From a virus (Duplodnaviria > Caudoviricetes): a stretch of DNA of 39,060 nucleotides. Position 1 is the stretch's first letter; the number at the start of each line of letters is the position of its first letter. The notes beneath the pieces were generated by a model. That model searched no databases. It was not told the origin of the DNA and was given only the letters and a program-made list of their open reading frames with translations. Position numbers and translations under genes: made by a program. The stretch lies in the IMG/VR virus record IMGVR_UViG_3300024283_000098, positions 1-39,060 of that record. The stretch is one strand, 5' to 3'. Positions 18,136-37,398 of this stretch are shown here, in pieces.

Positions 18136-18138
18136 CCC

Positions 18139-18462
18139 GTGGCGCGGCAGGCCGGCGCCGTCGCCGGGCGGCAGAAAAACCCGTTTCACTCGGTCACCAT
18201 CGGCGACGGCGCCAAGCAACAGGTGATCGGCGTGTCCGGCCCGCAATTCGCCTTGTTGGCGCGCGCCGCCGGCACCGGCTGCAAGCTGGTCAAAGGTGGC
18301 AACGAAAAAGACTTGGGCGTGCTGCACCGGCTCGGGCTGGTGCGTTTCAGCTTCAGCGATGACGACGGCTGGCCATACGCCGTCGCTGTGCTGACGCCGG
18401 CCGGCGCGCAAGCGCTGGCGCAAGAGCCGTTCGGCCACGCCAAGGCCACGACGGGAGGGTGA
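18139..18462 (+). CDS. Hypothetical protein (winged-helix-like?)
   Basis: LHRLGLV...LTPAG pattern; operon spacing. Confidence 0.5.
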   Translation: MARQAGAVAGRQKNPFHSVTIGDGAKQQVIGVSGPQFALLARAAGTGCKLVKGGNEKDLGVLHRLGLVRFSFSDDDGWPYAVAVLTPAGAQALAQEPFGHAKATTGG

Positions 18463-18466
18463 CGCG

Positions 18467-19105
18467 ATGCCGGGCTTGCTCGATCCAACTGACGATGCTG
18501 CCGACCAGTGGGACGCGGCGCCGTTTGGTGCGCCAAGTTACGTCATCGCTCAGGGCGCACTCGGTTCCCGTGTGCCGCGAGACACGATGCCGGACAGTCC
18601 GCGGTATCTGGAAGACTTGGATGTAGCGCCTGGTCCCCGACCGCAGAGTGAGGAAGACCAGGCGCTGGATGCCGTGTTTGTGCAGAAACAGCAGCTTAAA
18701 AATCAAATCGATATGGCTGAACAACAGATGAAACAACTGCCTTTAGGCTCGCCTGAGCGGGATAAGGCTTACGATCAGTGGGTCGGCATGATCAAGCAGT
18801 TTGGTCAGTTGAATGATCAGTTCAAAAACACACTCCCTGGGGCATGGTCCCAGCGCCTTGTCGGCGTGAATCAGAACCGAGGTCCTGATGTGAACACGAT
18901 GATGGACGCGATCCAGAACCGCCAGGCGCAGCCGCGCCAGCCATTATCGCCCCCGGCGCCGGGGGGTGTGCCGTACGCCCCGACGCCGATCGCGCCGCCG
19001 CCGGCAACCTCGGGGCTAACCTCATTCAACGATGATCCAACGGCCATCATGTCGCACTACCTCCGCACGACACTGGCGCAGCTCAAGAACGGCCGCCGCG
19101 TGTGA
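18467..19105 (+). CDS. Hypothetical protein with ejection-protein-like N-terminus
   Basis: GGAGG RBS; MPGLLDPTDDAADQW resembles the start of 7099. Confidence 0.6.
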   Translation: MPGLLDPTDDAADQWDAAPFGAPSYVIAQGALGSRVPRDTMPDSPRYLEDLDVAPGPRPQSEEDQALDAVFVQKQQLKNQIDMAEQQMKQLPLGSPERDKAYDQWVGMIKQFGQLNDQFKNTLPGAWSQRLVGVNQNRGPDVNTMMDAIQNRQAQPRQPLSPPAPGGVPYAPTPIAPPPATSGLTSFNDDPTAIMSHYLRTTLAQLKNGRRV

Positions 19106-21012
19106 CCGACGAGCCGCCGAAACCGCCAACGGAGGAAAAACCGGAAAACGTCGAACGGCTGGCCGATCATCGCCGCCGCCGGCCGTCGCGCCTGGTCAAC
19201 GTCACCAACGACCAACCCGCCGTGGCCGCCCGACTGGCCCAGGTGCATGCCCTGCTCGGTCCCGACGTGCCCTATGAGCCGGTCGGGTTCGACGGAACGC
19301 ATTACTGGGTGATCGACAGCGAGCGACACCTTCGCGCCAGCGCCGCGCGTGATCTCGGTGGCGCGCAGCTTGATTCGATTTGCGGTGCCGCGCCGTTCCT
19401 GCGCAACCGCTATCCCCGGATGCGCAACGGCAAGCCGGTGGAGGGCTTCGTCGCCGATCGCGCGCGGCGTGAGCTGATGAACGCCTGTCACCTGATGGGC
19501 TATTGGGAGCCACGCAATATCCGCTCGGTGGGCGCCTGGCTCGGCGCGGACGGCGATCTGATCCTGCACCGGGGTGACCATCTGTTTATCAACGGCCAGA
19601 TGCGCCCGCTCGGCCGGGTTGGCGAATTCGTCTACATCCCCGGCCCGCCGCTGCCGCCGCTACCCAAAGTGATCAAGACGATGGACCCGGCCGGCGAATT
19701 GCTCGACCGGCTGGAAACCTTCGGCTTCGCGCGCGGCACGTTCGACGCGTCGATGGTGCTGGCGCTAATCTGCGCCGCGATGTTGAGCGGGGCGCTGAAA
19801 TTCCGCCCGCATGGTTTTTTTGTCGGCGAAATGGGGCTTGGCAAATCGACCCTGCAAGCGTTCATTCTGGCGGTACTCGGTGCCAACGGCATCGTCGCCA
19901 TTACCGACGCCACGGCGGCCGGTATCTGGCAGGCGTTGCGCAATCGCTCAATTGCCGTGGGTTATGACGAATTCGAGGCTGAGGCGGACCCGAAAAAACA
20001 AGACCGGGTGATCGCGCTGGCGCGGCAAGCCAGTACCGGCGGCGTGCTGCGCCGGGGCTCCAGCCAGCACGTCGGCAGCGAGTTCCCGATCCTGTCCAGC
20101 TTCCTGCTGTCCGCCATCATCGCGCCGCCGCTGAAATCCGAGGACGCGTCGCGGTTCGTGCCTATCACCATGGTCAAGGCAAGCTTCCCGCGCGCGCCGT
20201 TCTCACTGGACCGGCTGGAACGGCTCGGGCTGGAACTGACCGCTGTCCTGGCCGCGCGCTGGCGATTGCTGACCGATAGCGTGCTGCCTGAGCTGCGCGC
20301 GCTGATGGCGGCCCAAGACAAGGGCGGCCGGCTGACCGATCTGTATGGCACGCTGCTCGGGCTGGTGTCGGTGGCGCTGTACGATGACCTCGGGCGGATG
20401 AACCTGGCCGGCCGGCTGGCCAGCCACCATATGACGCGGCTGCTGGCCGATGCGGCGGAGGATCAATTGCCGGAATACCGCCGCTGCATCGATCGGTTGC
20501 TGGCGCATCGCACGGAAAAGAATCGCCCTACCAGCACGCAACTCGGCGAGCTCATTGCCATGGTCGCGGGCGTGCTGGCCAATCCTGCCACCCGGATGCA
20601 GGCGTCGCTGTTGGGTGACGATGAGGACGTGAGCGATGACAGCGAGCCCGACCGGATGGCCTTTGCCAGGCGACAGTTGGCGGCCTTCGGGCTCAAGGTC
20701 GTGGCGCTGAGCGGCGACAACAGGGCCGCCAACATCGTGCTGCAAGTGGCGCACAATAATCCGCAGTTGGCGGAGGTGTTCGAGGATACCCGCTGGCGCA
20801 GCATGCCCGAATCGGCGACGGGTGGCGGTTGGACTCAGGCGCTGAAACGGGCGCCCGAGGCCAGTCTTGGCAGGACGCGGTTTCGCGGCGTGCTGTCACG
20901 CTGCGTCAATGTGCCGATGGCGCTGGTGCTCCAGCCGGGCAACGCGCCCCGGCCGGGCGAACAGCGGCCGGCAGACGAACAGCCCGGCGACGCGGCCGGG
21001 CTGCTGCATTAG
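19102..21012 (+). CDS. Primase-associated P-loop NTPase / replicative helicase
   Basis: Walker A GEMGLGKST, Walker B VGYDEFE, DASRF; follows the primase. Confidence 0.8.
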   Translation: MTDEPPKPPTEEKPENVERLADHRRRRPSRLVNVTNDQPAVAARLAQVHALLGPDVPYEPVGFDGTHYWVIDSERHLRASAARDLGGAQLDSICGAAPFLRNRYPRMRNGKPVEGFVADRARRELMNACHLMGYWEPRNIRSVGAWLGADGDLILHRGDHLFINGQMRPLGRVGEFVYIPGPPLPPLPKVIKTMDPAGELLDRLETFGFARGTFDASMVLALICAAMLSGALKFRPHGFFVGEMGLGKSTLQAFILAVLGANGIVAITDATAAGIWQALRNRSIAVGYDEFEAEADPKKQDRVIALARQASTGGVLRRGSSQHVGSEFPILSSFLLSAIIAPPLKSEDASRFVPITMVKASFPRAPFSLDRLERLGLELTAVLAARWRLLTDSVLPELRALMAAQDKGGRLTDLYGTLLGLVSVALYDDLGRMNLAGRLASHHMTRLLADAAEDQLPEYRRCIDRLLAHRTEKNRPTSTQLGELIAMVAGVLANPATRMQASLLGDDEDVSDDSEPDRMAFARRQLAAFGLKVVALSGDNRAANIVLQVAHNNPQLAEVFEDTRWRSMPESATGGGWTQALKRAPEASLGRTRFRGVLSRCVNVPMALVLQPGNAPRPGEQRPADEQPGDAAGLLH

Positions 21013-21227
21013 TCGTCACGTAGGCGACGGTCGGTCAGTTCCGGCACGGGCACGTTTTCAATCGCCTTGGCGACGCGTTCCAGATACCGCGCAATAACCG
21101 GATTGACCGAGCGGCGGCCGGTCCGCATGTCGCCAATCACGCCATGCGACACGCCGAACAACTCGGCGACGGAGCGGCCGGACCATCCCGTCCGCTTGAT
21201 CAACGCGGCGAATTCAGCGCCAGTCAT
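21009..21227 (-). CDS. Small HTH (XRE/Cro-like) protein
   Basis: MTGAEFAALIKRTGWSGRSVAELFGVSHGVIGDMRTGRRSV. Confidence 0.75.
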   Translation of the reverse strand: MTGAEFAALIKRTGWSGRSVAELFGVSHGVIGDMRTGRRSVNPVIARYLERVAKAIENVPVPELTDRRLRDD

Positions 21228-21423
21228 CGGGAAGGTACTCGCTGGCGGCCGTTTCGGCTTCCTCCTGCGTCGCGTAAACGCCCCGGAAATGCGCCAGGTT
21301 GTTCCATACGTCGCCAATCTGACGTAGCGCGTGACAAGCCGCGTCTGTTTTCACATAGGAAACGCGATACGCGGCATGGTCGCGCGACGCGCGGCTGGTG
21401 TCGTAGCTGATAAGAATTTCCAT
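21214..21423 (-). CDS. Hypothetical protein
   Basis: GGAG upstream; GVYATQEEAETAA motif. Confidence 0.55.
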   Translation of the reverse strand: MEILISYDTSRASRDHAAYRVSYVKTDAACHALRQIGDVWNNLAHFRGVYATQEEAETAASEYLPDDWR

Positions 21424-21504
21424 ATTGGTCACTAATCTTACTCCAGAGGGACGCGGCCGGCATGCTCTGCCGGCCGCACGGTTAACGGTAAGCGGTCAAT
21501 TTGG

Positions 21505-21693
21505 TCAATCGTCCGTCAGCAGCGCCCGTGCCAGCATGGCGGCCTCGTCACGGCTCATGACGACGCGGAACGTGACGAGCTCGCCGCCCGGCGCGAAGCC
21601 TTGCGACTCCACGCCGATTGACCAGCAATCGCGGCTGGTGACTTTCATCGTGGAGCCCGACAGCAGCGGGATACCGTTGCGCTGAATGATCAT
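21505..21693 (-). CDS. Hypothetical protein
   Basis: TGATG coupling with the upstream ORF; GGAGG RBS. Confidence 0.5.
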   Translation of the reverse strand: MIIQRNGIPLLSGSTMKVTSRDCWSIGVESQGFAPGGELVTFRVVMSRDEAAMLARALLTDD

Positions 21694-22046
21694 CACGCGG
21701 CCTCCGCGAAGCGCACGGGCGCCGGTTCGGCATACTCAGGGCCAATGGGCAACGTGCCGGCTGGCCAATAGCGCGCGGCCGGCAAGCGGCGGTCACGCGG
21801 CGCGTGCGACACGCGGCCATAGACCTTGCACGCCGCCCAGGCGGACGGGATGCGCGCCCATTGGCTGGCGCCGGGCACCAGATACCAACGCTCGCCAAGG
21901 GCGGCGATCGCGGCATGCCTTGCGGCATTGTAGGCCGGCACAAAATCATCATAGCCGCGAAAAGATGCGCCAGCCTTGCGGGTGGCACGCTGGCGCAGCG
22001 GCTGGCCGCAGCACTCACACACGGGAATTGCGGAAACGGTGGACAT
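21693..22046 (-). CDS. Hypothetical protein with N-terminal CxCCG motif
   Basis: GGAG RBS; VCECCGQPL. Confidence 0.55.
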   Translation of the reverse strand: MSTVSAIPVCECCGQPLRQRATRKAGASFRGYDDFVPAYNAARHAAIAALGERWYLVPGASQWARIPSAWAACKVYGRVSHAPRDRRLPAARYWPAGTLPIGPEYAEPAPVRFAEAA

Positions 22047-22081
22047 GGTTTTAGACTCCGGTTTGTTGGTTCGGGTGAAGC

Positions 22082-22125
22082 CCCGGCGCCGCGCTGTCGC
22101 CTGGAAGCCAAGGCGCGGCGCCGGG
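22082..22125. other. 13-bp GC-rich inverted repeat after ardC
   Basis: cccggcgccgcgc-N18-gcgcggcgccggg. Confidence 0.55.
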
Positions 22126-22128
22126 TGG

Positions 22129-23052
22129 TCACGCGGCAAGCAATGCCGCGCTTGGTTGTGCGTCATGCAAGAATGACGCGGCGCGGTCCGCCGCACTGGC
22201 GGCCGTGAAAATCGCCCGGTTGTCGGTTTTCAGGACCGCGAGCCAATTGGCCAGATAGTCGGCATGGTCCGCGCGCGGTGCGTCCGATATGGCCAAGTCA
22301 GCGCACAGGAAGGCACTGCCTAACTCTGCAACGAGCTCTTCCATTGCATAAGCGTTATCGCCGAACCGCTTACCGAACGGCCTAGCGCACCGTGACTCAT
22401 GGCCCGTCCAATGGATCGCCTCATGCGCCAGCGTGGCATAGTAGGACTCGGCCGAGTTGAACGCGGCGAGCTCAGGCATGCGCACCGCGTCAAGCGAGGG
22501 GGCGTAAAATGCCCTGTCGCCACCGTGCGCCAACCGCACGCCAGCGTCAGCGAAAAATGCGTCCACGACACCGTTGCGCGCGTGCGGGCAGACTGGCGCC
22601 GGCATATCAACCGGCGCCGCGATGGGCGCGAAACGTGCCGGCAAACCGTCAATCTCACTGGCATTAAAGACGTGGTAGCATTTCAGAAACGAGATTGTCT
22701 GACCGTCGCTCGTTTCGCCCGGTGTCGCCGGTGTGTCCGCGCCCTTGATCGTGGTCTGACCGACATAAAACGCGAATTCGCCCCGCGCGCCCTTGCGCAC
22801 CTGACCACCGAGCTCTTGCGCGCCCTTGTAGGTCATCCAATGGCGTGACGTGAGTCCGCGCATCTGCGCCGCGCACCATAGATTGATCACGTTCATGCCC
22901 TTGTAAGCCTGACCGTTGGCGCGCAGCGGCCGCTGCATCGCGCCGGTAATGGTTGGGAAACTGCCATCCCATGACTTTTGCCAGGGCTTGGTGCCCGCCT
23001 CTAGCATTGCCACGATACGGTCCGTGACTTGCTGGTAAACCTCGGTTTTCAC
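22129..23052 (-). CDS. ardC: ArdC-family anti-restriction ssDNA-binding / zincin-like protein
   Basis: YQQVTDRIVAMLEAGTKPWQKSW, YKGMN, WMTYKGAQELGGQVRKG, HEAIHWTGHESR, YAMEELVAELGSAFL. Confidence 0.92.
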   Translation of the reverse strand: MKTEVYQQVTDRIVAMLEAGTKPWQKSWDGSFPTITGAMQRPLRANGQAYKGMNVINLWCAAQMRGLTSRHWMTYKGAQELGGQVRKGARGEFAFYVGQTTIKGADTPATPGETSDGQTISFLKCYHVFNASEIDGLPARFAPIAAPVDMPAPVCPHARNGVVDAFFADAGVRLAHGGDRAFYAPSLDAVRMPELAAFNSAESYYATLAHEAIHWTGHESRCARPFGKRFGDNAYAMEELVAELGSAFLCADLAISDAPRADHADYLANWLAVLKTDNRAIFTAASAADRAASFLHDAQPSAALLAA

Positions 23053-23102
23053 GCTCTTTACTCCGTTGCCTTGTTGACGAACAAACATTTAGGGAATTGT
23101 CT

Positions 23103-23181
23103 AAGCGGACACAATGACCGCTTATGCATAGCAGCCATGCAAAGCGGACGTATTGACCGCTTATGTGCGAGCCATTAGATA
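23103..23181 (+). promoter_or_regulatory. Two palindromic operators overlapping a sigma70-like promoter
   Basis: AAGCGGAC-N4-TGACCGCTT at 23103 and 23142; TTGACC-17-TAGATA. Confidence 0.65.
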
Positions 23182-23212
23182 CCGCTCCGTCAACAACAAG
23201 CGGAGCACGACA

Positions 23213-23437
23213 GTGTATGACTTGGCACATGAAAACGAAGCGCCCGGCCAGTGCGGCAAGTGTCGCGGCACGGGGGTTTATTCTTGGGGCGCGTGCGTCA
23301 ATGGCAAGATGGAGAAGTCTGGCCGCTGCAATTCCTGCGGCGGCACCGGGCGGCAGACCATGCGCGACATGATGCGCAATCGCACCTATAACATGCACAA
23401 GATTGCACGCATGTGCGACGGATGGGGAGGCCGCTGA
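23213..23437 (+). CDS. DnaJ-type zinc-finger small protein
   Basis: CGKCRGTG and CNSCGGTG motifs; GGAG RBS. Confidence 0.7.
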   Translation: MYDLAHENEAPGQCGKCRGTGVYSWGACVNGKMEKSGRCNSCGGTGRQTMRDMMRNRTYNMHKIARMCDGWGGR

Positions 23438-23438
23438 T

Positions 23439-23717
23439 ATGCCGCAAGCAATCGAGCTCCGTGGCGACCGTGAGCCCCGTTGGGTATCGCCGCGCCGCGA
23501 GTATCAGCGCAATCTATACCGCGCGCAGTTCTATATCTGGTCAGTGCTCCGTCGCCACGCCGATTGCACGTTGCGTGATCCTATTACCGGGTTGACCTTG
23601 GCGAATGGTCCGGCCGAATCGCGCGCGCTCGCCGCTATCACGCACAAGGCGCTGGCGCGCCACTACATCGCCAGGGCGCGCGCGATGCGGGATCATTTCG
23701 TAAAGAGCCAAGCCTGA
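23439..23717 (+). CDS. Hypothetical protein
   Basis: GGAGG RBS. Confidence 0.55.
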   Translation: MPQAIELRGDREPRWVSPRREYQRNLYRAQFYIWSVLRRHADCTLRDPITGLTLANGPAESRALAAITHKALARHYIARARAMRDHFVKSQA

Positions 23718-23744
23718 CCAGCGATCTGTACATGGCTGCCATGC

Positions 23745-23784
23745 AAGCGGACGTATTGACCGCGTGTATGGCAGTCATTAGATT
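23745..23784 (+). promoter_or_regulatory. Third operator/promoter copy
   Basis: AAGCGGACGTATTGACCGCGT; TTGACC-17-TAGATT. Confidence 0.65.
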
Positions 23785-23814
23785 GGGCGCATCGAAACAA
23801 ACGGAGTAACCGAC

Positions 23815-24018
23815 ATGATGAAGCTTCCCGCCCGCCTCGCCTATGGCTTGACCGTCGCCTACGGCCGCACCTGTGAGATTTCGCAATTCGAGTATGCCGA
23901 ACTCGCCGATGCACTGGCGATGTTCGAATCGTTCGCAAACGACTGCTGGACCATGGCCGCTACACTTTGCGGTCCGGAGGATGAAGTGATCGCGGAATAT
24001 GAGATGGGAGACCGGTGA
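23815..24018 (+). CDS. Hypothetical acidic protein
   Basis: GGAG RBS downstream of the promoter copy. Confidence 0.55.
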   Translation: MMKLPARLAYGLTVAYGRTCEISQFEYAELADALAMFESFANDCWTMAATLCGPEDEVIAEYEMGDR

Positions 24019-24212
24019 GGATGCAAATCACAGTTCAAGTCCGTCAAGTGTATGGCGTGGAAACAATCTATCCCGCGTGCAAGACGAGCGTTTTTTTCTG
24101 CGGTCTGGCGCGGACCAAGACAATCACGGAGGACATGATGCGCATGATCCTCGCGCAAGGTTATGAGGTAGCAGTGGAAGCGCCCGCGCTGCGCTTCGTG
24201 GGGAGGAATTGA
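24015..24212 (+). CDS. Hypothetical phage protein
   Basis: ITVQVRQVYGVETIYPAC..LARTKT..GYEVAV; coupled to neighbours. Confidence 0.6.
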   Translation: MRMQITVQVRQVYGVETIYPACKTSVFFCGLARTKTITEDMMRMILAQGYEVAVEAPALRFVGRN

Positions 24213-24213
24213 A

Positions 24214-24675
24214 ATGGCAAAGCTGTCCGCGCACGGTCAGATCATTGGCACCGTCGAATATATCACCAAAGCAAAGCGCTATATGTCCGATGGTGTCATT
24301 CTCAAGAATGACGGCATGGGCTGGAAACTCTATGGCAAGGTGAAATTCCATCTCACGCCAGCCCAAGCTTACCAGCATGCGCGCGACAAGCTTGCGGCGC
24401 GACTGGCAGCGCTACCAGCGCTGGCCACTTACATTCGCGAGCTCCACGATATGGCTGGCCAGTGCAAGCGCTGGAAACTGCATATGGCAGTCAGCATGAT
24501 GCCGGATGACGCTGATGGTGTCTGGTCGGAAGCGTGCGACGGTTATGGCGACAACGTGCATGCTGACGTGGATGACGTGGCCAAACTGTGCGCGCTATTT
24601 CGCGCGGCGGAACGCGAGCGCGTGCAATATGGTGCCAGCCTGGCGCCGGATGCGTCGCGCGTGACTGGCGACTGA
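24214..24675 (+). CDS. Hypothetical protein
   Basis: GGAGG RBS, 153 aa. Confidence 0.6.
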   Translation: MAKLSAHGQIIGTVEYITKAKRYMSDGVILKNDGMGWKLYGKVKFHLTPAQAYQHARDKLAARLAALPALATYIRELHDMAGQCKRWKLHMAVSMMPDDADGVWSEACDGYGDNVHADVDDVAKLCALFRAAERERVQYGASLAPDASRVTGD

Positions 24676-24698
24676 TTACCCCCAAGCCCAATAGCAAG

Positions 24699-24730
24699 CC
24701 CGCACTGGTCACCAGTGCGGGTTTTCTTTT
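24699..24730 (+). terminator. Intrinsic terminator
   Basis: cccgcactggt-c-accagtgcggg followed by ttttctttt. Confidence 0.8.
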
Positions 24731-24800
24731 GCCCGTTCCCCATGCGCCCGAGTGTGGTAGGATTAGCGCGCTGGCTATCGGTGCTCCGATCGAACGGGGC

Positions 24801-25062
24801 GTGACAGTGTGACAGTCGAGGGTTTCCGACCGTCACGCTTTTCTTAGCCAGACTACCAAAAGCGTGACGATGTGACGGTTGTGACAGTGAATTTGCGCGC
24901 TCAGTGCAAACCAACGGCCTCGCGCGGGAGTCTATACCCCGCGCGCGTGCGTACGCGTGAGAGCACGAAAACACTGTCACACCTGTCACACTGTCACGCT
25001 TTTTATCACACAGTGAAATCCGGCAATTCCTACTGTCACGCTTCCTCGTCACACCTGTCACA
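24801..25062. repeat. GTGAC(A/G)/(T/C)GTCAC iteron cluster, probable replication origin
   Basis: About 12 copies; mostly GTGAC on the left (24801-24886) and GTCAC on the right (24975-25061). Confidence 0.65.
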
Positions 25063-25108
25063 CTCTCTCTTCTCTCTCCTCTCTTTTGAGGGAGAGAGAG
25101 AGAGAGAG
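25063..25108. repeat. CT-rich/GA-rich inverted repeat
   Basis: ctctctcttctctctcctctc-tttt-gagggagagagagagagagag. Confidence 0.7.
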
Positions 25109-25142
25109 TAATGAGCTCAAAGGCTTAGGAGGGGTGCAACCG

Positions 25143-25799
25143 ATGGTAGCAGAAGAAAGTGAAACGAAAATTCCAGCAGTCGGGGACGCTGAAACGGCCG
25201 AAAACCCCTTGCCGGCCGGCGCGGCTGGCGACTCGCGCGCGCAAATCGCGCTCGCGTTTGACAGTCAGGGTGACCACCAAATGGTCACGGAGGCGCCCGA
25301 TTCGCACGATGGGCGCAAGCCAAGGCGGAAACAGCCGCGCTATGACACGCGGCGGACGGCCGAATACCTGTCCGAGCGCGGCCGGTTGCCGGCCGAAGCG
25401 TTGCACCTGATCACGCGCCGCACGCTGCCCGAGGCGATCGCCTACATCCGCAAGGCCGTGCCTGGTGCCGATCACATGTGGTGCGCCAACTACTACATGC
25501 GCGCCATCGAGCTCTTGTTGCCCTACTGCCACCTCCGCCAGAGCGATCTAGATACGGCCGGTGGTCTCGACGGTGTGCATAGCCTGGTGGCAGCGCATTT
25601 TCTCGCCGCGTCGCAGTTTGGCGCGCGGACCACGATTGACGCGCCGCGCGGGAGTGGGGGTGCGCTGTCGCATAGTGGTAGACTATTTGACAGCGGGAGG
25701 CCGGCCGTGCAGGCTGACGATCAGGGAGGCAACACCATGCCGAACACCAATTCCGCCGTTGGTTCGGTCGTCACGTTGCCGCCGCGCGGCCGCGATTGA
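25143..25799 (+). CDS. Putative terminase small subunit-like protein
   Basis: GGAGGGG RBS; GRKPRRK..TRR..P and AIELLLPYCH motifs; first gene of the late strand. Confidence 0.45.
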   Translation: MVAEESETKIPAVGDAETAENPLPAGAAGDSRAQIALAFDSQGDHQMVTEAPDSHDGRKPRRKQPRYDTRRTAEYLSERGRLPAEALHLITRRTLPEAIAYIRKAVPGADHMWCANYYMRAIELLLPYCHLRQSDLDTAGGLDGVHSLVAAHFLAASQFGARTTIDAPRGSGGALSHSGRLFDSGRPAVQADDQGGNTMPNTNSAVGSVVTLPPRGRD

Positions 25800-26554
25800 T
25801 GCCGCCCGCTGCACTCGGGGCCGCCACCGACGCGCCGCGCGCGCCCCCCCCCGGCCCCGCCGTGGGCCCGCCCCCGTCATATCCGTGCGGACCTAGCAGC
25901 GCCGTCGAAGGGATTATCTGGCAGAACGGCCGAACCACGGATGACATGCGCCGAGTGTGGGCGGCGGGGGCCAGGGGCGCGGCGGTCAACCGCTGCGGGC
26001 TCTGCACCGCGCCGCTGTATCTGAGCCGGGGCGAGCTGATCTGTTTCGGCTGCCGCAGTCATCTGCCGATCCGCTGGCGTCGCAAGGTGACCGAGCTCTG
26101 GCTGAGCGGCATGCCAGCCGCCGACATTGCCAGGGTGGCCGGTGGCACCAAGTCAGCGGTGCTGTCCTATCGCCGTCGCGCCATGTTGCCGGCGCGCGGC
26201 ACGCCGCTGGTGGGCCTGTCCGACAGTGAACGCGCCGAACGCAACCGTCGCGCCGCGATCGGGCGCACGCTGCCGGTGAAACGGACCAAGCCGCCGCCGG
26301 CCGCGAAGCCGGTCGCGGCCAAGCGCGCCGTCGTGCTGCCGGCAGAGTCCGGCTCGGCGACGCCCGGCGGGGCGGCCAGCGTGGCGGAAAACGTCGGCCG
26401 CCCCAAAGGCTTGCCCCGGCATGCGCCGCGCGCCGGATTTGCGAGCTGCCAATACATCACCGGCCGGCGCGCGTTCTGTGACGACCCGGTGGCCGAACTA
26501 TCGCCGTACTGCGCCGCGCATACCCGGCTTTGTTATCAGGCGCGCGCGGCGTGA
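25799..26554 (+). CDS. gcrA: GcrA-family transcription regulator with N-terminal extension
   Basis: ELWLSGMPAADIARVAGGTKSAVLSYRRRAML and CQYITG..FCDDP..SPYCAAHTRLCY; start uncertain. Confidence 0.8.
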   Translation: MPPAALGAATDAPRAPPPGPAVGPPPSYPCGPSSAVEGIIWQNGRTTDDMRRVWAAGARGAAVNRCGLCTAPLYLSRGELICFGCRSHLPIRWRRKVTELWLSGMPAADIARVAGGTKSAVLSYRRRAMLPARGTPLVGLSDSERAERNRRAAIGRTLPVKRTKPPPAAKPVAAKRAVVLPAESGSATPGGAASVAENVGRPKGLPRHAPRAGFASCQYITGRRAFCDDPVAELSPYCAAHTRLCYQARAA

Positions 26555-26605
26555 TCCCGCCTGACGACCGTTTACATATCAACACATACATGGAGTATAT
26601 ACGAT

Positions 26606-27094
26606 ATGGCAGCATTCCCCGTTCCCGCTGGCTCGGTCATCGTGGTGCCGGGCGGCCCGGACAACACGCTTCCCGGACAGCCGCCCGGCATCTGGGGTGG
26701 CGCGCCGCCCTTCATCGACAATACCCTGCCGCCGCCGCCCCCTGGCATCTGGCCGCCCCCCGTTGGCATTTGGCCGCCAACACCACTCCCGCCAAATCAC
26801 CCGATGCCACCCGGCAGTATCTGGCCGTCGCCTGGTGTGCCGACGCATCCGATTGCGCCTGGTGGTCCGCCGCCTGTCGTCGGGGGTGGTCCGGCTGTGC
26901 CACCGCCTATGCCGGGGCATGATTTGCCCTCGCAGAAATTCCTTGTTGCGATCGTCGCGGTGAGTGCGGCCGGTGGTGCGCGGGTCGTCGGTTATACGGT
27001 CGTTGATCCCTCCCTGTCGGTTGGTTATCCGCTGCCGTCCGTGCCAGGTGCGCCGAACCAAGATTTGCCGCCAACCGCGCAGCCACGGCGGTAG
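26606..27094 (+). CDS. Proline-rich repeat protein
   Basis: GGAG RBS in an AT-rich leader; DNTLP and PGIWP repeats. Confidence 0.7.
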   Translation: MAAFPVPAGSVIVVPGGPDNTLPGQPPGIWGGAPPFIDNTLPPPPPGIWPPPVGIWPPTPLPPNHPMPPGSIWPSPGVPTHPIAPGGPPPVVGGGPAVPPPMPGHDLPSQKFLVAIVAVSAAGGARVVGYTVVDPSLSVGYPLPSVPGAPNQDLPPTAQPRR

Positions 27095-27100
27095 TGAGCG

Positions 27101-27820
27101 ATGATCCCGGCCGACGTGCTCAACGAGGCGTCACGCCTGGCGCTCGCGGCCGGGGTCAAAATTCTGCAAGGCTTCCGCCTCGCTGACACCGATGCGGCGC
27201 ATGTCGCACGGTTGTTGGATTACATGCAGCCCGAGGCGGGCGAGACCTGGGTCGATATCGGCTGCGGTTTCGGCGAGGTGGCGCGACTGATGCACGCGGC
27301 CTGTCCCGACCTCAACTTCATCTTGGTCAACAATAACTATTTCCAACTGTCGCACGCGCCACGCGATTTCCTGCAACTGCACGCCGACATGCACGACCTG
27401 CCGCTGGAGGACGAAAGCGCCGATGGCTGCATGCTGCTGTATGCGCTGTGCCATGCCGAGCCGTTTGAGATGGCGCTGCGCGAAGCCGCCCGCGTGACAC
27501 GGCGCGGTGGGCGCTTACTGGTGTTCGATTACGAGCGGTTGCCCGACCAAACGCGGCCGACACATCCCGGCGGCGCGGCGCATGTGCCGGACTATGGGCT
27601 GGCTGACCCGAACCGGTTGATGCGCGAGCGGCTATTTGCGCGGGCAGTTCCGTTCGATGAGATGGTGGCAATTGCCGACATTGCCGGCTGGACGGTCGAC
27701 TGGCACGAAAACCCCGATGGCTGCGATGACGTGTTTCGCATGCTGTACGGCAACGATGAGGAATACGCCCGGATATTCGATGATCTACGGCCGGTGATCT
27801 GGACGGCAGTGCGGCGATGA
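27101..27820 (+). CDS. Class I SAM-dependent methyltransferase
   Basis: WVDIGCGFG motif I; ADMHDLPLEDESADG; REAARVTRRGGRLLVFD. Confidence 0.88.
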   Translation: MIPADVLNEASRLALAAGVKILQGFRLADTDAAHVARLLDYMQPEAGETWVDIGCGFGEVARLMHAACPDLNFILVNNNYFQLSHAPRDFLQLHADMHDLPLEDESADGCMLLYALCHAEPFEMALREAARVTRRGGRLLVFDYERLPDQTRPTHPGGAAHVPDYGLADPNRLMRERLFARAVPFDEMVAIADIAGWTVDWHENPDGCDDVFRMLYGNDEEYARIFDDLRPVIWTAVRR

Positions 27821-27838
27821 GTCCGCCCGAGGTGTCCC

Positions 27839-28072
27839 ATGTGTTTTAGTGTTGCGTGGCTGGTGCAACTCCTGGTCTGGTTGGTCGTGGTGTGCGGGCT
27901 TGTGGCGATCGCCATGCTGCTGCTGCCCATCCTGCTCGGTTGGCTCGGCTGGGCCGGCAGCATCGCCATGCAGGTCATCCGCATTGTGGTTGCGGTGATC
28001 GTCATCGTGTTCATCATCTATTTCTTATTCGACTTATACCAATGCGCCTTGGGCCGGCCGCTGCTGAGATGA
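27839..28072 (+). CDS. Two-TM membrane protein
   Basis: GAGG RBS; two long hydrophobic helices. Confidence 0.7.
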   Translation: MCFSVAWLVQLLVWLVVVCGLVAIAMLLLPILLGWLGWAGSIAMQVIRIVVAVIVIVFIIYFLFDLYQCALGRPLLR

Positions 28073-28809
28073 GCCCGATCGATCTGTCGCCGCTGGACCG
28101 GCACGAAAAGATTTGCCTAGCCTGGTCAGGCGGGAAAGATTCAACCGCCGTCCTGCACATGCTTCGTCACGAATTGCACCGTATCATTGTTTATCACTGC
28201 GATACGGGCGATCTTCTCCCGGAAATGCGCGAACACATCGCGATGTTTGAGGATGCCATTCCGAATTTCGTGCGCGTGCAGACCAACGTCGCCGCGTGGA
28301 ACATCGAACACGGCCTGCCGACCGATCTGATGCCGCACAGTCAGGATCGCGTCGGCCGGATGATGGGCGAGCACAAAATCCTGCTGACCTCGCGCTATGA
28401 TTGCTGCGTTGCGAACCTGATGGACCCGCTCTGGCAGCGCGTGAAAGCGGACGGCAACACGCTGCTGATCCGGGGTACCAAATCGGTCGACATGAAGCGA
28501 CTGCCGATGCAAAGCGGCGACGTGCAAGAGGGTATCGAGCTCTACTATCCGCTACAGGAATGGTCGCACGCTGACGTGTTCGCCTACCTGCGCGAGCATG
28601 GCATTCCGCTGCCACGGCTTTATCAGCACGTCACGAATGCGCCCGAGTGTGCGCGCTGCACCGCCTGGTGGCGTGAGGGACGTGGCGCCTATCTGGCGCA
28701 GTACTATCCCGATCTGGCGCGCGACTATCAGGCCCGGCTGAAGCTGGTCGCGGCGGAAATCGGCCCATCGATCGACGCGCTCGGCGGCGAACTTAGCGCC
28801 GGGCTCTGA
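28069..28809 (+). CDS. PAPS/APS-reductase-family PP-loop protein
   Basis: AWSGGKDS, CDTGD, CC-X80-CARC, YPLQEWSHADVFAYL. Confidence 0.85.
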   Translation: MSPIDLSPLDRHEKICLAWSGGKDSTAVLHMLRHELHRIIVYHCDTGDLLPEMREHIAMFEDAIPNFVRVQTNVAAWNIEHGLPTDLMPHSQDRVGRMMGEHKILLTSRYDCCVANLMDPLWQRVKADGNTLLIRGTKSVDMKRLPMQSGDVQEGIELYYPLQEWSHADVFAYLREHGIPLPRLYQHVTNAPECARCTAWWREGRGAYLAQYYPDLARDYQARLKLVAAEIGPSIDALGGELSAGL

Positions 28810-33200: not shown

Positions 33201-33469
33201 GTGACTCGCCCAACATCTCTGAACAGCAGTTGCGTGAGGAGGCGCCGAAAGCGCAACGATTGCTGGACGACGAGTATTTCCAGACCATCACACGGGAAAT
33301 GCAGCTCGCCGCGATGGAGCAGGCGATCGTCGCGCCGACGCAGGAGCTGCGCAGCGATGCGCGTGTTGAAGTGCTGGTGCTGCGCAAGATGGTCGGGTAT
33401 CTGCAAGTGATTGCCGGCGGCGTGCGCGATATGGAAATGGCGCGGCAGAGCATGAAGGCGATGGAATGA
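33197..33469 (+). CDS. Post-portal small protein
   Basis: AQRLLDDEYFQ; ATGA coupling. Confidence 0.65.
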   Translation: MSDSPNISEQQLREEAPKAQRLLDDEYFQTITREMQLAAMEQAIVAPTQELRSDARVEVLVLRKMVGYLQVIAGGVRDMEMARQSMKAME

Positions 33470-33684
33470 AACGTCGACAGCGCACGCTGTTCGACGGCGA
33501 GCCGTTCACCTGCCTCGACTGCGGCTTTGTCAGCTACAATCCGAACGACGCCAAACACCGCTATTGCGCGCGTTGTCATCGCTTCATGGATGATCTGCGC
33601 AGTGACGCCGATGCGCGCTACGCGGCGCGGCGTTTTCAGGAAAGCTATCAGACACTCCTCCCGAAAAAAGGAACCAGGCAATGA
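33466..33684 (+). CDS. Small zinc-finger protein
   Basis: FTCLDCGFVSYNPNDAKHRYCARCHRF. Confidence 0.6.
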   Translation: MKRRQRTLFDGEPFTCLDCGFVSYNPNDAKHRYCARCHRFMDDLRSDADARYAARRFQESYQTLLPKKGTRQ

Positions 33685-34916
33685 GCGACACAGGCGGCAC
33701 GCCAGCCGGCGGCGCACCCGCAGCGGACGGCGGTAGCGCAGCGTCCGGCCCGGCAGCGGCCACACCGCCCAGCGGGCCGCGCCGGTCGGCGCCGGGACTG
33801 ACCAGTGACCGGGGCGGCATGACGCTCTCGCAGGGCGTCGCCGCGCTGCGCCGAGGCGCCGCGCCGAGCCCGGCGCCGGCAGCGGACGGCGCGCCACAAC
33901 CGTCGCCGATCCTGACCACGGAACCGGCGCCGCCACGACGCCGTGCCGCGCCGTCGCAACCGCAAGGCGCGAACGGCGCCGCCGCTGACGGCGGGCAGCA
34001 ACAGCCGCCGCAACAGCAGCAACCGCAGCGGCAGACCGCACCAGCCAGCGCGATCGACGCCGTGCTCGCCGCGCTGACGGGCGCCGACCGTGGCGCTGAT
34101 GGCGGCCAGCAGCAGCAAGGTAGTGAGCCGCAACCGGCGCCGACCAACGCGTATCTCCAGGGCGTGCCGCTGACCATCGAAGGCCAGCAGCGGCATTTCA
34201 CCGTGCCCGAATTGACCGACGCGGTGTCGAAGGCGAGCGACTACACCCGAAAGACACAGCAACTCGCCGAGCAGGCGCGCACGATCAACGAGCGGGCGCA
34301 GACCATCGATCAGTTGCTGCCGATTCTAATTCCCGAAATCGAGCGACAATTGCAGGCGATGGATGGCGGCGGTTTCGCCGAGCCGGACTGGATCGCGTTG
34401 TCCGCCGATCCGGCCGAGTATGCTCGGCAGAACGCCGCCTGGCGCGTGCATCAACAGCAGCGCGAGCAAGAGCGCGGCCGGCTGACGCAGATCATGCAGG
34501 CCAACCAGCAACGCGAGGCGCAGCAGCGGGCGGAACGCGTGCGTGTCAGCCATGCCGAGTTGGTGCGGACCCTGCCCGGCTGGGGCGATGAAAAAACCCG
34601 CAACCAACTGATCGGGGAAATGCGCGCCTGGGGCGCCAAGAACGGTTTCCCGGCCGCCGAGCTCGATCAGATCGTGGAGGCGCGGCATATCCGAACGATT
34701 GCCTGGGCGATGATCGGCCAGCGCATGGCGGAGGGCGCGCGTACCGCGACCTTGCAGGTGCCGCAGGTGAGGCGCGGCGGCGCACCGGCCGCGCCGGCAC
34801 CGGCGGCGGTGCGCAACGCCGAGGAACGCTTCGCCGCCACCCCGAACGTCAAGAGCGGTGTCGGGCTGCTGATGGCGCGGCGCGCCGCGCAGCGCGGCAA
34901 CGGCGCGGCCCGATGA
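33681..34916 (+). CDS. Capsid scaffolding protein
   Basis: DYTRKTQQLAEQ, EPDW..DPAEY, LPGWGD, GFPAAEL; between portal and capsid. Confidence 0.82.
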   Translation: MSDTGGTPAGGAPAADGGSAASGPAAATPPSGPRRSAPGLTSDRGGMTLSQGVAALRRGAAPSPAPAADGAPQPSPILTTEPAPPRRRAAPSQPQGANGAAADGGQQQPPQQQQPQRQTAPASAIDAVLAALTGADRGADGGQQQQGSEPQPAPTNAYLQGVPLTIEGQQRHFTVPELTDAVSKASDYTRKTQQLAEQARTINERAQTIDQLLPILIPEIERQLQAMDGGGFAEPDWIALSADPAEYARQNAAWRVHQQQREQERGRLTQIMQANQQREAQQRAERVRVSHAELVRTLPGWGDEKTRNQLIGEMRAWGAKNGFPAAELDQIVEARHIRTIAWAMIGQRMAEGARTATLQVPQVRRGGAPAAPAPAAVRNAEERFAATPNVKSGVGLLMARRAAQRGNGAAR

Positions 34917-35107
34917 CCAACGAAACGACCGACTTTGACGAAGAGCTTGGCAAGCTGATCTCAGAACTGGCAGCGCGCCCGGTTGAGATCGACAGTCGCC
35001 GCGTGCGCTGGTGCCTTGATCACGACATCCCGCCGTTCGCCAACGTTGCGGACGGCGGGTACGAGGCGTGGCAACTCGTGACGGACAAGGAGCTTGAAGG
35101 TGGCTGA
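34913..35107 (+). CDS. Hypothetical protein
   Basis: ATGA coupling to the scaffold gene. Confidence 0.5.
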   Translation: MTNETTDFDEELGKLISELAARPVEIDSRRVRWCLDHDIPPFANVADGGYEAWQLVTDKELEGG

Positions 35108-35282
35108 CCCGGTATCCAAGACCACCGTCCCTTTTGGTGACGGTTCGCTATGCTCTGGCGGCTTATGGATTGTCCGCGTTAGCGTCACATGCCCAGTGTG
35201 CGGCGCCCCACCGACTGGTGGCTGTCTCCGCGATCTGGAGTTGGTCTCTCGCGAAGAGATTGAAGGCAACGACCATGAGTGA
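35100..35282 (+). CDS. Small Cys-rich protein
   Basis: VTCPVCGAPPTGGC; overlaps neighbours. Confidence 0.45.
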   Translation: MADPVSKTTVPFGDGSLCSGGLWIVRVSVTCPVCGAPPTGGCLRDLELVSREEIEGNDHE

Positions 35283-35439
35283 CAAGACGACCGCACTTGA
35301 GGTCTGGATCGAGAACGAGAAGGAGCGCTTGGACGAGTTCGCTAATTGGTGGCGCCTTGGCCGACCGAGAACTGACTTTCCGTTGGCCATGCCTGATGGC
35401 GAATGGGATGAGCAATATCGCGCTTGGAGCGGAATATGA
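35275..35439 (+). CDS. Hypothetical protein
   Basis: LDEFANWW..FPLAMPDGEWDEQY. Confidence 0.5.
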   Translation: MSDKTTALEVWIENEKERLDEFANWWRLGRPRTDFPLAMPDGEWDEQYRAWSGI

Positions 35440-35651
35440 AAGACAACGAGAGCGCTTCCTCAACGACCCGATCTTACGAGCAACGCTGCATCACCTGTCG
35501 CCATAGCCACTTGCAGAACGAAGCGATCGGAGACTGTCGGGTGTTCCACAAAGATGTGCTCCACGAAAATGTGGAACCCTGCGGCAGTTACGCTGGTCGC
35601 GGCAGCGATGACGGCGCTGGTCAATCTGCTGGATGGGGATGGGAAGCATAA
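35436..35651 (+). CDS. Small Cys-rich protein
   Basis: CITCRH..GDC..PC; GGAG RBS, ATGA overlap. Confidence 0.5.
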   Translation: MKDNESASSTTRSYEQRCITCRHSHLQNEAIGDCRVFHKDVLHENVEPCGSYAGRGSDDGAGQSAGWGWEA

Positions 35652-35693
35652 AGCCGCCAGGGAGCCGGATTCGGTCAAATAGTAATTCGCTAT

Positions 35694-35722
35694 TTGACAG
35701 AGCGGCGCGGCTGCGCTGATAT
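35694..35722 (+). promoter_or_regulatory. Sigma70-type promoter for the capsid operon
   Basis: TTGACA-17 nt-TGATAT preceded by an AT-rich tract. Confidence 0.65.
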
Positions 35723-35729
35723 CGCCGCC

Positions 35730-36050
35730 AGCCGGGCCATGGCAGTCGCAGGACCAAGCAACGCCCGGTGAGCCGGTGGAGTCTTGCCAGACCAACCATC
35801 CCGGCGACGACGTGCCTCTGCGGCGGTGACCAGTGCCGCGCCCTCGCCGGCCAACCGGAGTCGCGTCGCGACCAACCGCACGGCCCGCCTGAAGCGGCAT
35901 CCGGCTCCTATGCGGAACCCCGGTCACGGGCGCGGCTTTGCAATCCGCGTGCGGCGACCAACACGCAGACCCACGGCTTGCAATCGTGGAACGGCGTCAC
36001 GGTTCAACGCGCGCGGTGCATCGCCGGGCGCACGCAACAGGAGTGAGGAA
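35730..36050 (+). ncRNA. Structured leader RNA with repeated stem-loop motifs upstream of the capsid gene
   Basis: Three A-GTC..GAC-CAA stem-loops, two related GACCA hairpins and two TTGCAA-loop hairpins. Confidence 0.65.
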
Positions 36051-37040
36051 ATGGCCCTTCCGGTCATGTCGCCGGCACCGGCAAACACCTATATCGAGAC
36101 CACCGCGCCGAACGTCCGCGAAGACCTCGCGGATATCATCTATCAGATCGACAAAGACGAGACCCCAATGGTGTCGATGCTCGATAGCGTCGGCGCCGAT
36201 CAGGTGCTGACCGAATGGCTGCTGCAAGAACTCAACCCGGCCGCCAATGTGCCGCAGCCCGAGGGTTTCACCGCCGCGATGAGCCCGGCCAAGAAGCCGT
36301 CGCGGTTGAATAACATCTGTCAAATCCTCGCCCGCACCGTGTCGGTGTCCGATACGCTGCGCGTGGTGCAGCAGGTCGGCGAGGAAGAATTCGCCCGTCA
36401 ACTCCTGCTGCGCGGTCAGGAGCTCAAGCGTGATCTGGAACTCGCCATCACGTCGGAGTCGGTAAAAACCATCGCCGACCCGCGCGCGCTCGCCGGGTTC
36501 CCGACCTGGTGCAGCGTCGGGTCGGTCGGCGCCGGGGCGGGCGTGCTGCCGGTCGGCGACGGCACCAACGGGCACACGCCGGGGACGCTGCGCGATCTGA
36601 CCATCACCATGGTGGAAGACTGCCTGCAAGCGAATTTCAACAACGGCCAGGTGCCATCGGCGGCGCTGATGTCGGCCAACATCAAGCGCTATTTCAGCGT
36701 GCTGGCGGCGACCACCGGCGCGCCGACCACCAACCCGATCGTGCAACAGAATATCCTGATGTCATCGTCGGCGCAGCCGGTGACACTGAATGGTGCGGTG
36801 GATGTCTACCGCTCGAATTTTGGCGAGATTCAACTGATCCCCGATCGGTTCATTCCCGCGCACATCATCGAACTGGTCAGTCGGGATTTCGTGGAGCTGG
36901 CGCCGCTGCCGAACCGCGACATGATCGAACAGGACTACGGCAAGACCGGCGATTCCACGCAGGGCGGCATTGTCTGGGAAGGCACGCTGCGCGTCACCGC
37001 ACCGAAGGCACAAAGTTGTGTCTTCGATTTGAACCAATAG
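36051..37040 (+). CDS. Major capsid protein (DUF5309/SU10-like)
   Basis: AGGAG RBS; REDLADIIYQIDKDETP, NICQI, ELKRDLE, YRSNFG, KTGDS, EGTLRV. Confidence 0.9.
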   Translation: MALPVMSPAPANTYIETTAPNVREDLADIIYQIDKDETPMVSMLDSVGADQVLTEWLLQELNPAANVPQPEGFTAAMSPAKKPSRLNNICQILARTVSVSDTLRVVQQVGEEEFARQLLLRGQELKRDLELAITSESVKTIADPRALAGFPTWCSVGSVGAGAGVLPVGDGTNGHTPGTLRDLTITMVEDCLQANFNNGQVPSAALMSANIKRYFSVLAATTGAPTTNPIVQQNILMSSSAQPVTLNGAVDVYRSNFGEIQLIPDRFIPAHIIELVSRDFVELAPLPNRDMIEQDYGKTGDSTQGGIVWEGTLRVTAPKAQSCVFDLNQ

Positions 37041-37062: not shown

Positions 37063-37398
37063 ATGGCTCTGGAAAACACCCTGCTCGATATCCATCACCC
37101 GGACACCGGGCGGCGCACCCGCTACGTGCAGACCGAGAACGGCGCGATCATCGTCAACGATCAGGACCGCAGCGCCATTCTCGCAGCCAACGCCATCGAG
37201 CGGTCGATGTTCGACAAGTGGAACGCCTACAAGGCCAACGTCAGCAGCGGCGGCTGGACCAAGGTCGCGTCCATCCCGGCGGCGGATTTCTGGGCACTCG
37301 ATGCGCGCGGCGTGACCCGCCATCCGGCCTCGCTGCGCGCCTGGCTCAATCGCGACGACACCCGCGCGTTCCGCACCGACGACTGCCGAAAACTCTAA
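37063..37398 (+). CDS. Post-capsid hypothetical protein
   Basis: KVASIP...LRAWLN..RAFRT. Confidence 0.7.
   Translation: MALENTLLDIHHPDTGRRTRYVQTENGAIIVNDQDRSAILAANAIERSMFDKWNAYKANVSSGGWTKVASIPAADFWALDARGVTRHPASLRAWLNRDDTRAFRTDDCRKL

What the first reader, a model, noticed from the sequence alone, without database searches (positions are those of the whole stretch)
35694..36053. Modular structured RNA leader with a repeated internal-loop motif before the major capsid gene
Seen: after a TTGACA-17-TGATAT promoter, ~320 nt contain three copies of one architecture, outer stem-A-GTC(n)GAC-CAA-outer stem. They are gc-A-gtc[gcag]gac-CAA-gc (within 35732-35768), tgg-A-gtc[ttgcca]gac-CAA-cca (35772-35805) and cgg-A-gtcgc[gtc]gcgac-CAA-ccg (35856-35878). 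Stems and loops differ between copies while the A/CAA internal loop is invariant, which is the pattern expected of selection on RNA structure. Two more hairpins carry GACCA(A) (35820-35839, 35947-35966), and two carry TTGCAA loops (35932-35948, 35971-35989). Inference: a multivalent protein-binding RNA, for example scaffold/capsid autoregulation (post-transcriptional scaffold autoregulation is known in P22), or an assembly/packaging RNA. I cannot assign it to a named RNA family.
Basis: partly seen in the sequence, partly recalled or inferred. Interest (0 to 1): 0.85.

Follow-up and report, generated by a model that had tools for sequence, protein, structure and literature searches.

The report
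Scaffold-read RNA switch for capsid translation
In a clade of uncultured tailed phages the capsid gene is preceded by a conserved leader whose sequence covariation predicts two alternative RNA folds, one hiding the ribosome-binding site, and whose repeated small loops change in step with two neighbouring residues of the scaffolding protein, so the scaffold likely binds the RNA and probably switches capsid synthesis on.

Summary
The three A/CAA hairpins are real and belong to a new family of ~190-360 nt leaders in front of SU10-type (DUF5309) major capsid genes (90 distinct leaders; no Rfam match). (1) The leader looks like a switch: an anti-SD helix hides the ribosome-binding site (82 of 89), and a mutually exclusive helix starting after a conserved CGUGCC captures the anti-SD strand (86 of 90), with compensatory changes. 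(2) All loop copies of one leader change together (CAA, CCA, CGA, GUC, GUA; 75 of 83 uniform), and loop type tracks two adjacent residues of a scaffold helix before its DYT-K motif (CCA with Arg at -4, 17 of 17; G-type loops with loss of K/Q/M/R at -3, 13 of 13; 10 of 11 held-out pairs fit), not the capsid protein. Best reading: scaffold binds the loops and probably turns capsid translation on; binding and direction are inferred, not shown. Distant SU10-capsid phages lack the leader. This scan noted different repeated internal loops in capsid/scaffold leaders of other phage groups, without a partner.

The parts
35694..35699 (+). -35 box TTGACA
   Evidence: TTGAC lies 200-400 nt upstream of the capsid start in 77 of 90 leaders
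35718..35723 (+). -10 box in the family register (18-nt spacer); predicted start of transcription near 35730
   Evidence: position profile of 74 leaders; inferred, no RNA data
35731..35769 (+). Hairpin H1 with A(35744)/CAA(35755-35757) internal loop
   Evidence: covariation of H1 and its outer stem in relatives
35772..35805 (+). Hairpin H2 with A(35780)/CAA(35793-35795) loop
35811..35816 (+). Conserved junction CGUGCC
   Evidence: GTG invariant in 44 of 44, GTGC in 23 of 23, CGTGCC in 6 of 6 of the window's clade
35817..35822 (+).
35833..35900 (+). Stem P3 (35833-35839 with 35894-35900) carrying H3 at its tip
35856..35878 (+). Hairpin H3 with A(35859)/CAA(35873-35875) loop
35905..35916 (+). 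Switching strand: anti-SD (35905-35914, pairs with 36033-36043 in OFF) overlapping the 3' strand of the ON helix (35911-35916)
   Evidence: compensatory changes in L007-L009, L147
35915..36008 (+).
36009..36032 (+). G+C-rich hairpin P7 of variable sequence
36033..36043 (+). SD strand CGCAACAGGAG
   Evidence: predicted pairing 1.00 at all four GGAG bases
36051..37040 (+). Major capsid protein, SU10_MCP (PF17236), 329 aa
   Evidence: relatives align from the first residue
33681..34916 (+). Head scaffolding protein (phrog_3927), the inferred ligand
34149..34349 (+). Scaffold beta-hairpin plus long helix; S183 and K184 (34227-34232) are positions -4 and -3 before D187 of the DYT-K motif
   Evidence: model pLDDT 87; covariation with loop type

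Best explanation
The region is a conserved 5' leader of the major capsid gene that is predicted to fold in two mutually exclusive ways, and the phage's scaffolding protein likely binds its repeated 1x3 internal loops and probably shifts it from the fold that hides the ribosome-binding site to the fold that frees it. Steps: (1) own sigma70-type promoter in front of the leader (inferred from conservation); (2) hairpins with a 1x3 loop, 2-4 per leader (shown by covariation); (3) OFF helix: anti-SD pairs with the SD strand (supported by conservation and compensatory changes); (4) ON helix: the segment after CGUGCC pairs with the end of the anti-SD strand (supported by co-occurring changes and nascent-chain folding; that the two folds interconvert in the cell is inferred); (5) scaffold reads the loops with the helix before its DYT-K motif (inferred from protein-RNA covariation); (6) free scaffold favours ON, so capsid protein is made when scaffold is available (inferred from OFF being the more stable fold and from assembly logic; direction not tested).
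For: Structure: 15 of 22 pairs (44 leaders) and 16 of 31 pairs (23 leaders) have changes on both sides; 94-95% of cells pair against 31-44% for slid registers. Context: 82 of 86 matches of a 3'-domain DNA pattern in IMG/VR lie directly before this capsid gene (80, plus L272 and L280 whose start my script mis-picked, confirmed); model R1 hits the capsid leader in 20 of 20 genomes; model R2, built without the window's clade, finds window 35730-35944 at E 1.9e-10. OFF: first two SD bases predicted paired (>0.8) in 82 of 89. ON: an alternative helix found in 86 of 90; upstream UCG(C/U) versus downstream GCGA: both 51, neither 16, upstream only 0, downstream only 9 of 76 parsed; independent pairs p about 0.03; matched insertions on both strands in the window's clade (UCUGC/GCGGA) and L151; P(ON)>0.5 in the nascent chain in 36 of 51 against 12 of 153 controls; OFF more stable in 81 of 86 full leaders, median 10 kcal/mol; in the window ON -154.1 and OFF -153.3 with the hairpins fixed. 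Partner: loop type uniform within 75 of 83 leaders (25 expected if independent), 17 and 16 changes for first and last copy but 18 jointly. In 73 leader/scaffold pairs CCA goes with Arg at -4 in 17 of 17 (CAA 3 of 39) and UGUC/UGUA with a residue other than K/Q/M/R at -3 in 13 of 13 (C-type 1 of 58); these two adjacent columns rank first among 297 and 294 scaffold columns (phi 0.89, 0.86; best capsid columns 0.66, 0.64); independent pairs p 0.03 on a scaffold tree with the domain dropped. Held-out pairs from a later scan: 10 of 11 fit; L404 has a GUC-clade scaffold and neighbour gene but S/M at -4/-3 and CAA loops. Six distant SU10-capsid phages have scaffold 9-27 nt from capsid and no leader.
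Against: No binding, probing or expression data. L244/G001 has CAA loops with a scaffold identical over the ~340 residues held to that of a GUC phage; L406 has CCA loops with Asp at -4; 3 CAA leaders have Arg at -4. The rule was found by looking at the data, and tree-based tests are weak: p 0.5 (CCA, capsid tree, 3 pairs) and 0.25 (G-type). In smaller sets other proteins reach similar phi (portal 0.89 with 19 rows, terminase 1.0 with 4 positives of 23, small protein before scaffold 0.90); only the last was shown to be a clade marker. Scaffold and leader are linked on the genome. For the window itself the ON helix has probability 0.00 in the nascent chain, is in the MFE but not the centroid of 35730-35925, and forcing ON frees the SD only partly in the family (mean unpaired 0.41 against 0.16). 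The OFF helix has few covarying pairs (1 of 7). In the window H1-H3 exist in both folds, so how binding tips the balance is not explained; the short-form model R1 does not detect the window's leader (E 0.09).
Confidence: 0.5

Rival explanations
1. Scaffold binds the loops but represses capsid translation (favours OFF), or binding only delays the collapse to OFF.
For: Same covariation; in some leaders (L157, L255 type) a complete loop copy forms with the strand used by the ON helix, i.e. in the OFF fold (read); P22 scaffold is recalled as a repressor of its own gene.
Against: OFF is already the more stable fold in 81 of 86 leaders, so a repressor would add little; in many leaders another copy, in inverted orientation, is continuous with the ON helix (read by eye: L143, L144, L151, L190, L280).
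Confidence: 0.15
2. The ligand is another factor (host protein, host tRNA, metabolite, or an unseen phage product); the scaffold correlation comes from linkage and ancestry.
For: L244 and L406 exceptions; high phi in other genes in small sets; conserved CGUGCC junction would suit a riboswitch; the loop triplets read as codons.
Against: Two separate contrasts point to adjacent residues; L404, L394 and L439 follow the residue rule against their closest scaffolds; no non-structural protein is common to the 18 near-complete genomes; no covarying second site; no tRNA genes in 60 stretches.
Confidence: 0.17
3. The loops recruit scaffold to the capsid mRNA to nucleate co-translational procapsid assembly, or the leader acts as a free assembly RNA; translational control is secondary.
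For: Multiple copies and scaffold covariation fit equally.
Against: The conserved OFF and ON helices centre on the SD; no terminator between leader and gene.
Confidence: 0.1
4. Ligand-free kinetic control: ribosomes load only while the nascent leader is in the ON fold (as recalled for the MS2 maturation gene); hairpins are structural.
For: ON forms in nascent chains (36 of 51) and OFF wins at equilibrium.
Against: Does not explain concerted loop changes or the scaffold covariation.
Confidence: 0.05
5. N-terminal coding extension of the capsid protein (TTG start at 35784) or chance repeats.
For: The frame is open from 35784 in the window.
Against: Only 2 of 90 leaders lack an in-frame stop, lengths fall evenly in the three frames (32/25/33); covariation.
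Confidence: 0.01

Closest known systems
P22 scaffolding protein post-transcriptional autoregulation (Casjens & Adams 1985; Wyckoff & Casjens 1985; titles seen only in reference lists; content recalled)
   Same: Free scaffold as the signal, acting after transcription, to balance head proteins.
   Different: Here the element precedes the capsid gene, not the scaffold gene; multiple internal-loop hairpins and a two-fold expression platform; predicted activation rather than repression.
Phage Mu Com/mom translational activation (recalled; search found no paper)
   Same: Phage protein binds upstream of an SD-sequestering stem and is thought to open it.
   Different: Com is a dedicated zinc-finger regulator with one site; here a structural assembly protein and 2-4 sites in a 200-360 nt leader.
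Translational ON riboswitch architecture (anti-SD / anti-anti-SD; established knowledge) and the MS2 maturation-gene leader (recalled)
   Same: Mutually exclusive helices, ON fold available first during transcription, OFF fold more stable.
   Different: No Rfam riboswitch match; ligand inferred to be a protein.
C-loop RNA 3D motif (definition read in passages of bioRxiv 10.1101/2021.12.02.470923)
   Same: Asymmetric 3x1 loop in a hairpin, first base of the long strand usually C; protein-binding and translational roles are reported there.
   Different: The single A is nearly invariant rather than free; G-type variants (U-GUC, U-GUA) lack the C; triads untested.
Candidate phage cis-RNAs of Fremin et al. 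2023 (PMC10690425), esp. DNAVirus_5700; GP20-a/b motifs
   Same: Structured RNA directly upstream of a phage structural gene; DNAVirus_5700 lies within 25 bp of DUF5309 genes.
   Different: DNAVirus_5700 is 91 nt, 4 sequences, 1 covarying pair, flagged as terminator; this leader is 190-360 nt with no terminator-like tract. Its alignment could not be read, so overlap is not excluded.

Membership tests
Any Rfam 15 family | Match at the gathering score | tested here: not met
   0 in the window; best local match E 6; none in the leaders of 13 relatives
Protein-bound phage translational operator | Lies in the 5' leader, overlapping or controlling the SD of one gene | tested here: met
Protein-bound phage translational operator | Sequence-specific binding by a phage protein | tested here: inconclusive
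   covariation with scaffold positions -4/-3, with exceptions; no binding test possible
Protein-bound phage translational operator | Binding changes translation | not testable with these tools
   needs reporter or toeprint
P22-type scaffold autoregulation | Operator on the scaffold's own mRNA | tested here: not met
   no loop cluster outside the capsid leader in 37 records; scaffold starts follow the upstream gene closely
Riboswitch-like two-state leader | Conserved, mutually exclusive anti-SD and anti-anti-SD helices | tested here: met
   (computational; weaker for the window alone)
Riboswitch (metabolite-binding) | Small-molecule ligand and aptamer | not testable with these tools
   no Rfam match; context is a capsid gene
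C-loop | Asymmetric loop in a hairpin, long strand usually starting with C | tested here: met
   153 of 187 strictly parsed copies have C-first triplets CAA, CCA, CGA, CAG, CAC after C, plus 4 after U; 31 are G-first
C-loop | Two crossed non-Watson-Crick pairs forming two triads | not testable with these tools
   no RNA 3D tool; the primary paper was not held
Fremin DNAVirus_5700 | Same sequence/structure model | tested here: inconclusive
   only table rows readable; length, terminator flag and size differ
phi29-type prohead RNA | Stand-alone RNA with complementary loops, protein-primed phage motor | tested here: not met
   element is fused to the capsid SD; phage has a terminase large subunit; apical loops vary from 3 to over 50 nt

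The most novel reading that the evidence does not exclude
A phage scaffolding protein doubles as a sequence-specific translational activator: its short beta-hairpin/helix domain reads repeated 1x3 RNA loops through a simple two-residue code and flips a riboswitch-like leader, so capsid protein is made only when its own phage's scaffold is free. Loop/residue variants would form orthogonal pairs that insulate co-infecting relatives, and the same DYT-K domain may be the missing partner of the repeated loops seen before head genes in other phage groups.
Probability: 0.45. Interest if true: 0.9.

Novelty: new variant of a known kind. Interest (0 to 1): 0.82.

Why it matters
How phages match scaffold and capsid amounts is known mainly from P22, where the RNA site and binding surface remain poorly defined (recalled). 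This family offers a defined RNA, a predicted switch, a named binding surface and natural specificity variants, so the question becomes directly testable. If confirmed it is a new protein-responsive RNA switch and a small natural protein-RNA recognition code, of use for orthogonal translational control.

Tried and rejected
Rfam at gathering and E-value thresholds: nothing. Whole-region folding z-scores: uninformative. A first DNA pattern scan gave mostly chance hits: 1 of 120 loci held the capsid gene. Capsid as specificity partner: L244 and L280 differ at 1 of 327 residues with different loops; best phi 0.66. Gene after the capsid: no tracking (phi 0.50-0.54); confident model, no fold match. 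Small protein between portal and scaffold: its columns are clade markers. A shared non-structural regulator: none common to 18 near-complete genomes (blastp clustering, distant small proteins could be missed). Trans RNA or second covarying site: none (needs homologous flanks, many records partial). Phage tRNAs: none. Kissing TTGCAA loops: not conserved. Expression: no RNA holder listed; the one run laid is probably DNA. Scaffold domain: no PDB sequence, Pfam or fold match beyond generic coiled coils. A homodimer prediction for the domain was not obtained. Literature searches with no relevant paper; one search gave only Fremin 2023. Host not determined: four hits in bacterial genome bins of mixed taxa. 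Dropped rows: L216 and L192 lack parseable hairpins; L255/256/290/291 left out of scaffold counts as probable chimeras; 12 leaders had no junction parsed and 4 of the parsed ones look mis-picked.

Full report
Setting. The window is a 39-kb temperate podophage-like record with integrase, terminase, SU10-type portal, scaffold (33681-34916), SU10 major capsid protein (36051-37040) and adaptor. A GcrA-like gene suggests an alphaproteobacterial host (inference).

Observation. Each folds locally, but the region as a whole is not unusually stable (z -0.46), so single-sequence folding gives no support. Rfam has no match.

Family. Capsid relatives (248 proteins at E<=1e-20) and their loci gave 90 distinct leaders. 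A strict parser finds at least one hairpin in 88 and two or more in 83. Covariation supports the stems: 15 of 22 pairs in 44 leaders and 16 of 31 in 23 leaders change on both sides, slid registers pair at 31-44% against 94-95%; relatedness inflates the shuffle control. A DNA pattern for the 3' domain matched 86 places in IMG/VR, 82 directly before this capsid gene (some contigs counted twice). Model R1 hits the capsid leader in 20 of 20 genomes, with one further weak hit; it does not detect the window's longer form (E 0.09), but model R2, built from 13 intermediate leaders without the window's clade, does (35730-35944, E 1.9e-10). The leader stays with the capsid gene when 0.2-2.3 kb separate it from the scaffold (61 loci). 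Six distant SU10-capsid phages have a 9-27 nt scaffold-capsid gap and no model hit. A TTGAC-N19-TANNNT promoter (18-nt spacer after the hexamer) precedes H1 in 74 of 90. The leader is not coding: 2 of 90 lack in-frame stops.

Two folds. The SD strand pairs with an upstream anti-SD strand (82 of 89; window 35905-35914 with 36033-36043), with compensatory changes in the window's clade though only 1 of 7 pairs covaries in the short forms. The near-invariance of that strand is explained by a second partner: the segment after the conserved CGUGCC is antiparallel-complementary to it (mean duplex -16.9 against -11.8 for shuffles, 82 parsed). Its terminal helix is present in 86 of 90. Upstream UCG(C/U) and downstream GCGA occur together in 51, are both absent in 16, never upstream alone, and downstream alone in 9 of 76 parsed (12 not parsed, 4 probably mis-picked); where they are absent both strands are altered in register (UCUGC/GCGGA in the window's clade, GCAUC/GAUGC, GCAG/UUGC, UCUCGC/GCGUGA). 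In chains cut just after the helix, P(ON)>0.5 in 36 of 51 against 12 of 153 controls; in full leaders OFF wins in 81 of 86. For the window the two folds are within 1 kcal/mol when H1-H3 are fixed, but the nascent probability is 0.00 and the helix is in the MFE yet not the centroid of 35730-35925. The switch is therefore a family-level inference.

Partner. Loop type is uniform within 75 of 83 leaders (25 expected from pooled frequencies), and first and last copies change 17 and 16 times but only 18 times jointly on both a capsid tree and a low-resolution leader tree. Two copies share the whole apical part in only 12 of 83, so simple duplication does not explain it. Capsid, the gene after it, the small gene before the scaffold, non-structural genes, tRNAs and second sites did not account for it. 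The scaffold did: in 73 pairs, Arg at -4 before the DYT-K motif goes with CCA (17 of 17 against 3 of 39 CAA) and loss of K/Q/M/R at -3 with UGUC/UGUA (13 of 13 against 1 of 58); these adjacent columns rank first in both scans. Loci from a later scan gave 11 new pairs, 10 fitting; several are kin of training rows, but L404, L394 and L439 follow the rule against their closest scaffolds. The domain is predicted as a beta-hairpin and long helix (pLDDT 87) with no known match. Against: L244 and L406 break the rule; tree-based sign tests reach p 0.03 in one setting and 0.25-0.5 in others; portal and terminase reach phi 0.89-1.0 in sets of 19-23 genomes and were not followed up; linkage remains possible.

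Mechanism. Most likely the promoter makes a capsid mRNA that defaults to OFF, and free scaffold, binding several loops, holds or restores the ON fold, so capsid synthesis follows scaffold supply (0.5). Direction is inferred from OFF being the stable fold and from an inverted loop copy continuous with the ON helix in many leaders (read by eye; absent in the window). Rivals: scaffold as repressor (0.15), another ligand (0.17), assembly nucleation (0.10), kinetics alone (0.05).

Known work. P22 scaffold autoregulation: titles seen in reference lists, content recalled. Mu Com and MS2 maturation leader: recalled. C-loop: passages of one preprint. Fremin 2023: passages and supplement rows; its DNAVirus_5700 before DUF5309 genes is a 91-nt, 4-sequence, terminator-flagged model; three supplement files were too large and two archives unsearchable, so partial overlap with one of its 10,006 models is not excluded. 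Searches found no description of this RNA or of scaffold-activated capsid translation; the library lacks most subscription papers. Earlier notes of this scan describe other repeated loops before head genes in other phage groups, none on this DNA.

Verdict. Real, conserved, apparently undescribed RNA; works like a protein-responsive translational switch; new variant of a known kind; interest 0.82.

Noticed in passing
L190:3408-3638, L311:11544-11774, L314:13596-13829, L320:18882-19115: Group I intron (RF00028) inside the major capsid gene near codon 298; six records have the split gene.
   Followed up: partly
window 34913-35682: Cassette of small unknown ORFs between scaffold and promoter; close relatives lack it and a contig in run X1 joins 34914 to 35674. 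The site takes insertions of up to 2.3 kb in relatives.
   Followed up: partly
window 33466-33684: 72-aa ORF with two CxxC pairs (zinc-ribbon-like, spacing recalls Mu Com) between the portal-linked small gene and the scaffold; not a conserved family in the other genomes.
   Followed up: partly
L290:1501-2378 and L255: Two leaders about 800 nt apart, each followed by a capsid start; probably chimeric assemblies.
   Followed up: no
upstream of the gene after the capsid in G005-G008, G012, G014, G034, G044, G048, G049: Shared hairpin with variable arms ending in a conserved CCGCTTATAG-like tail where an inserted gene follows the capsid gene; possibly the end of a mobile element or another RNA motif.
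   Followed up: no
window 37063-37398: Conserved 111-aa gene after the capsid (phrog_3982) is more variable than its neighbours between close relatives (70-79% against 95-100% for capsid); confident model with no fold match.
   Followed up: partly
window 15155-28809: Integrase/primase module shared with only three other near-complete genomes; the head-tail module with the leader is combined with unrelated replication modules. Also ArdC-like anti-restriction, GcrA-like, methyltransferase and PAPS-reductase-like genes.
   Followed up: no
L002:1-475: A GcrA-like coding sequence (recognised by eye, recalled motif) ends just before the leader's promoter in this relative.
   Followed up: no
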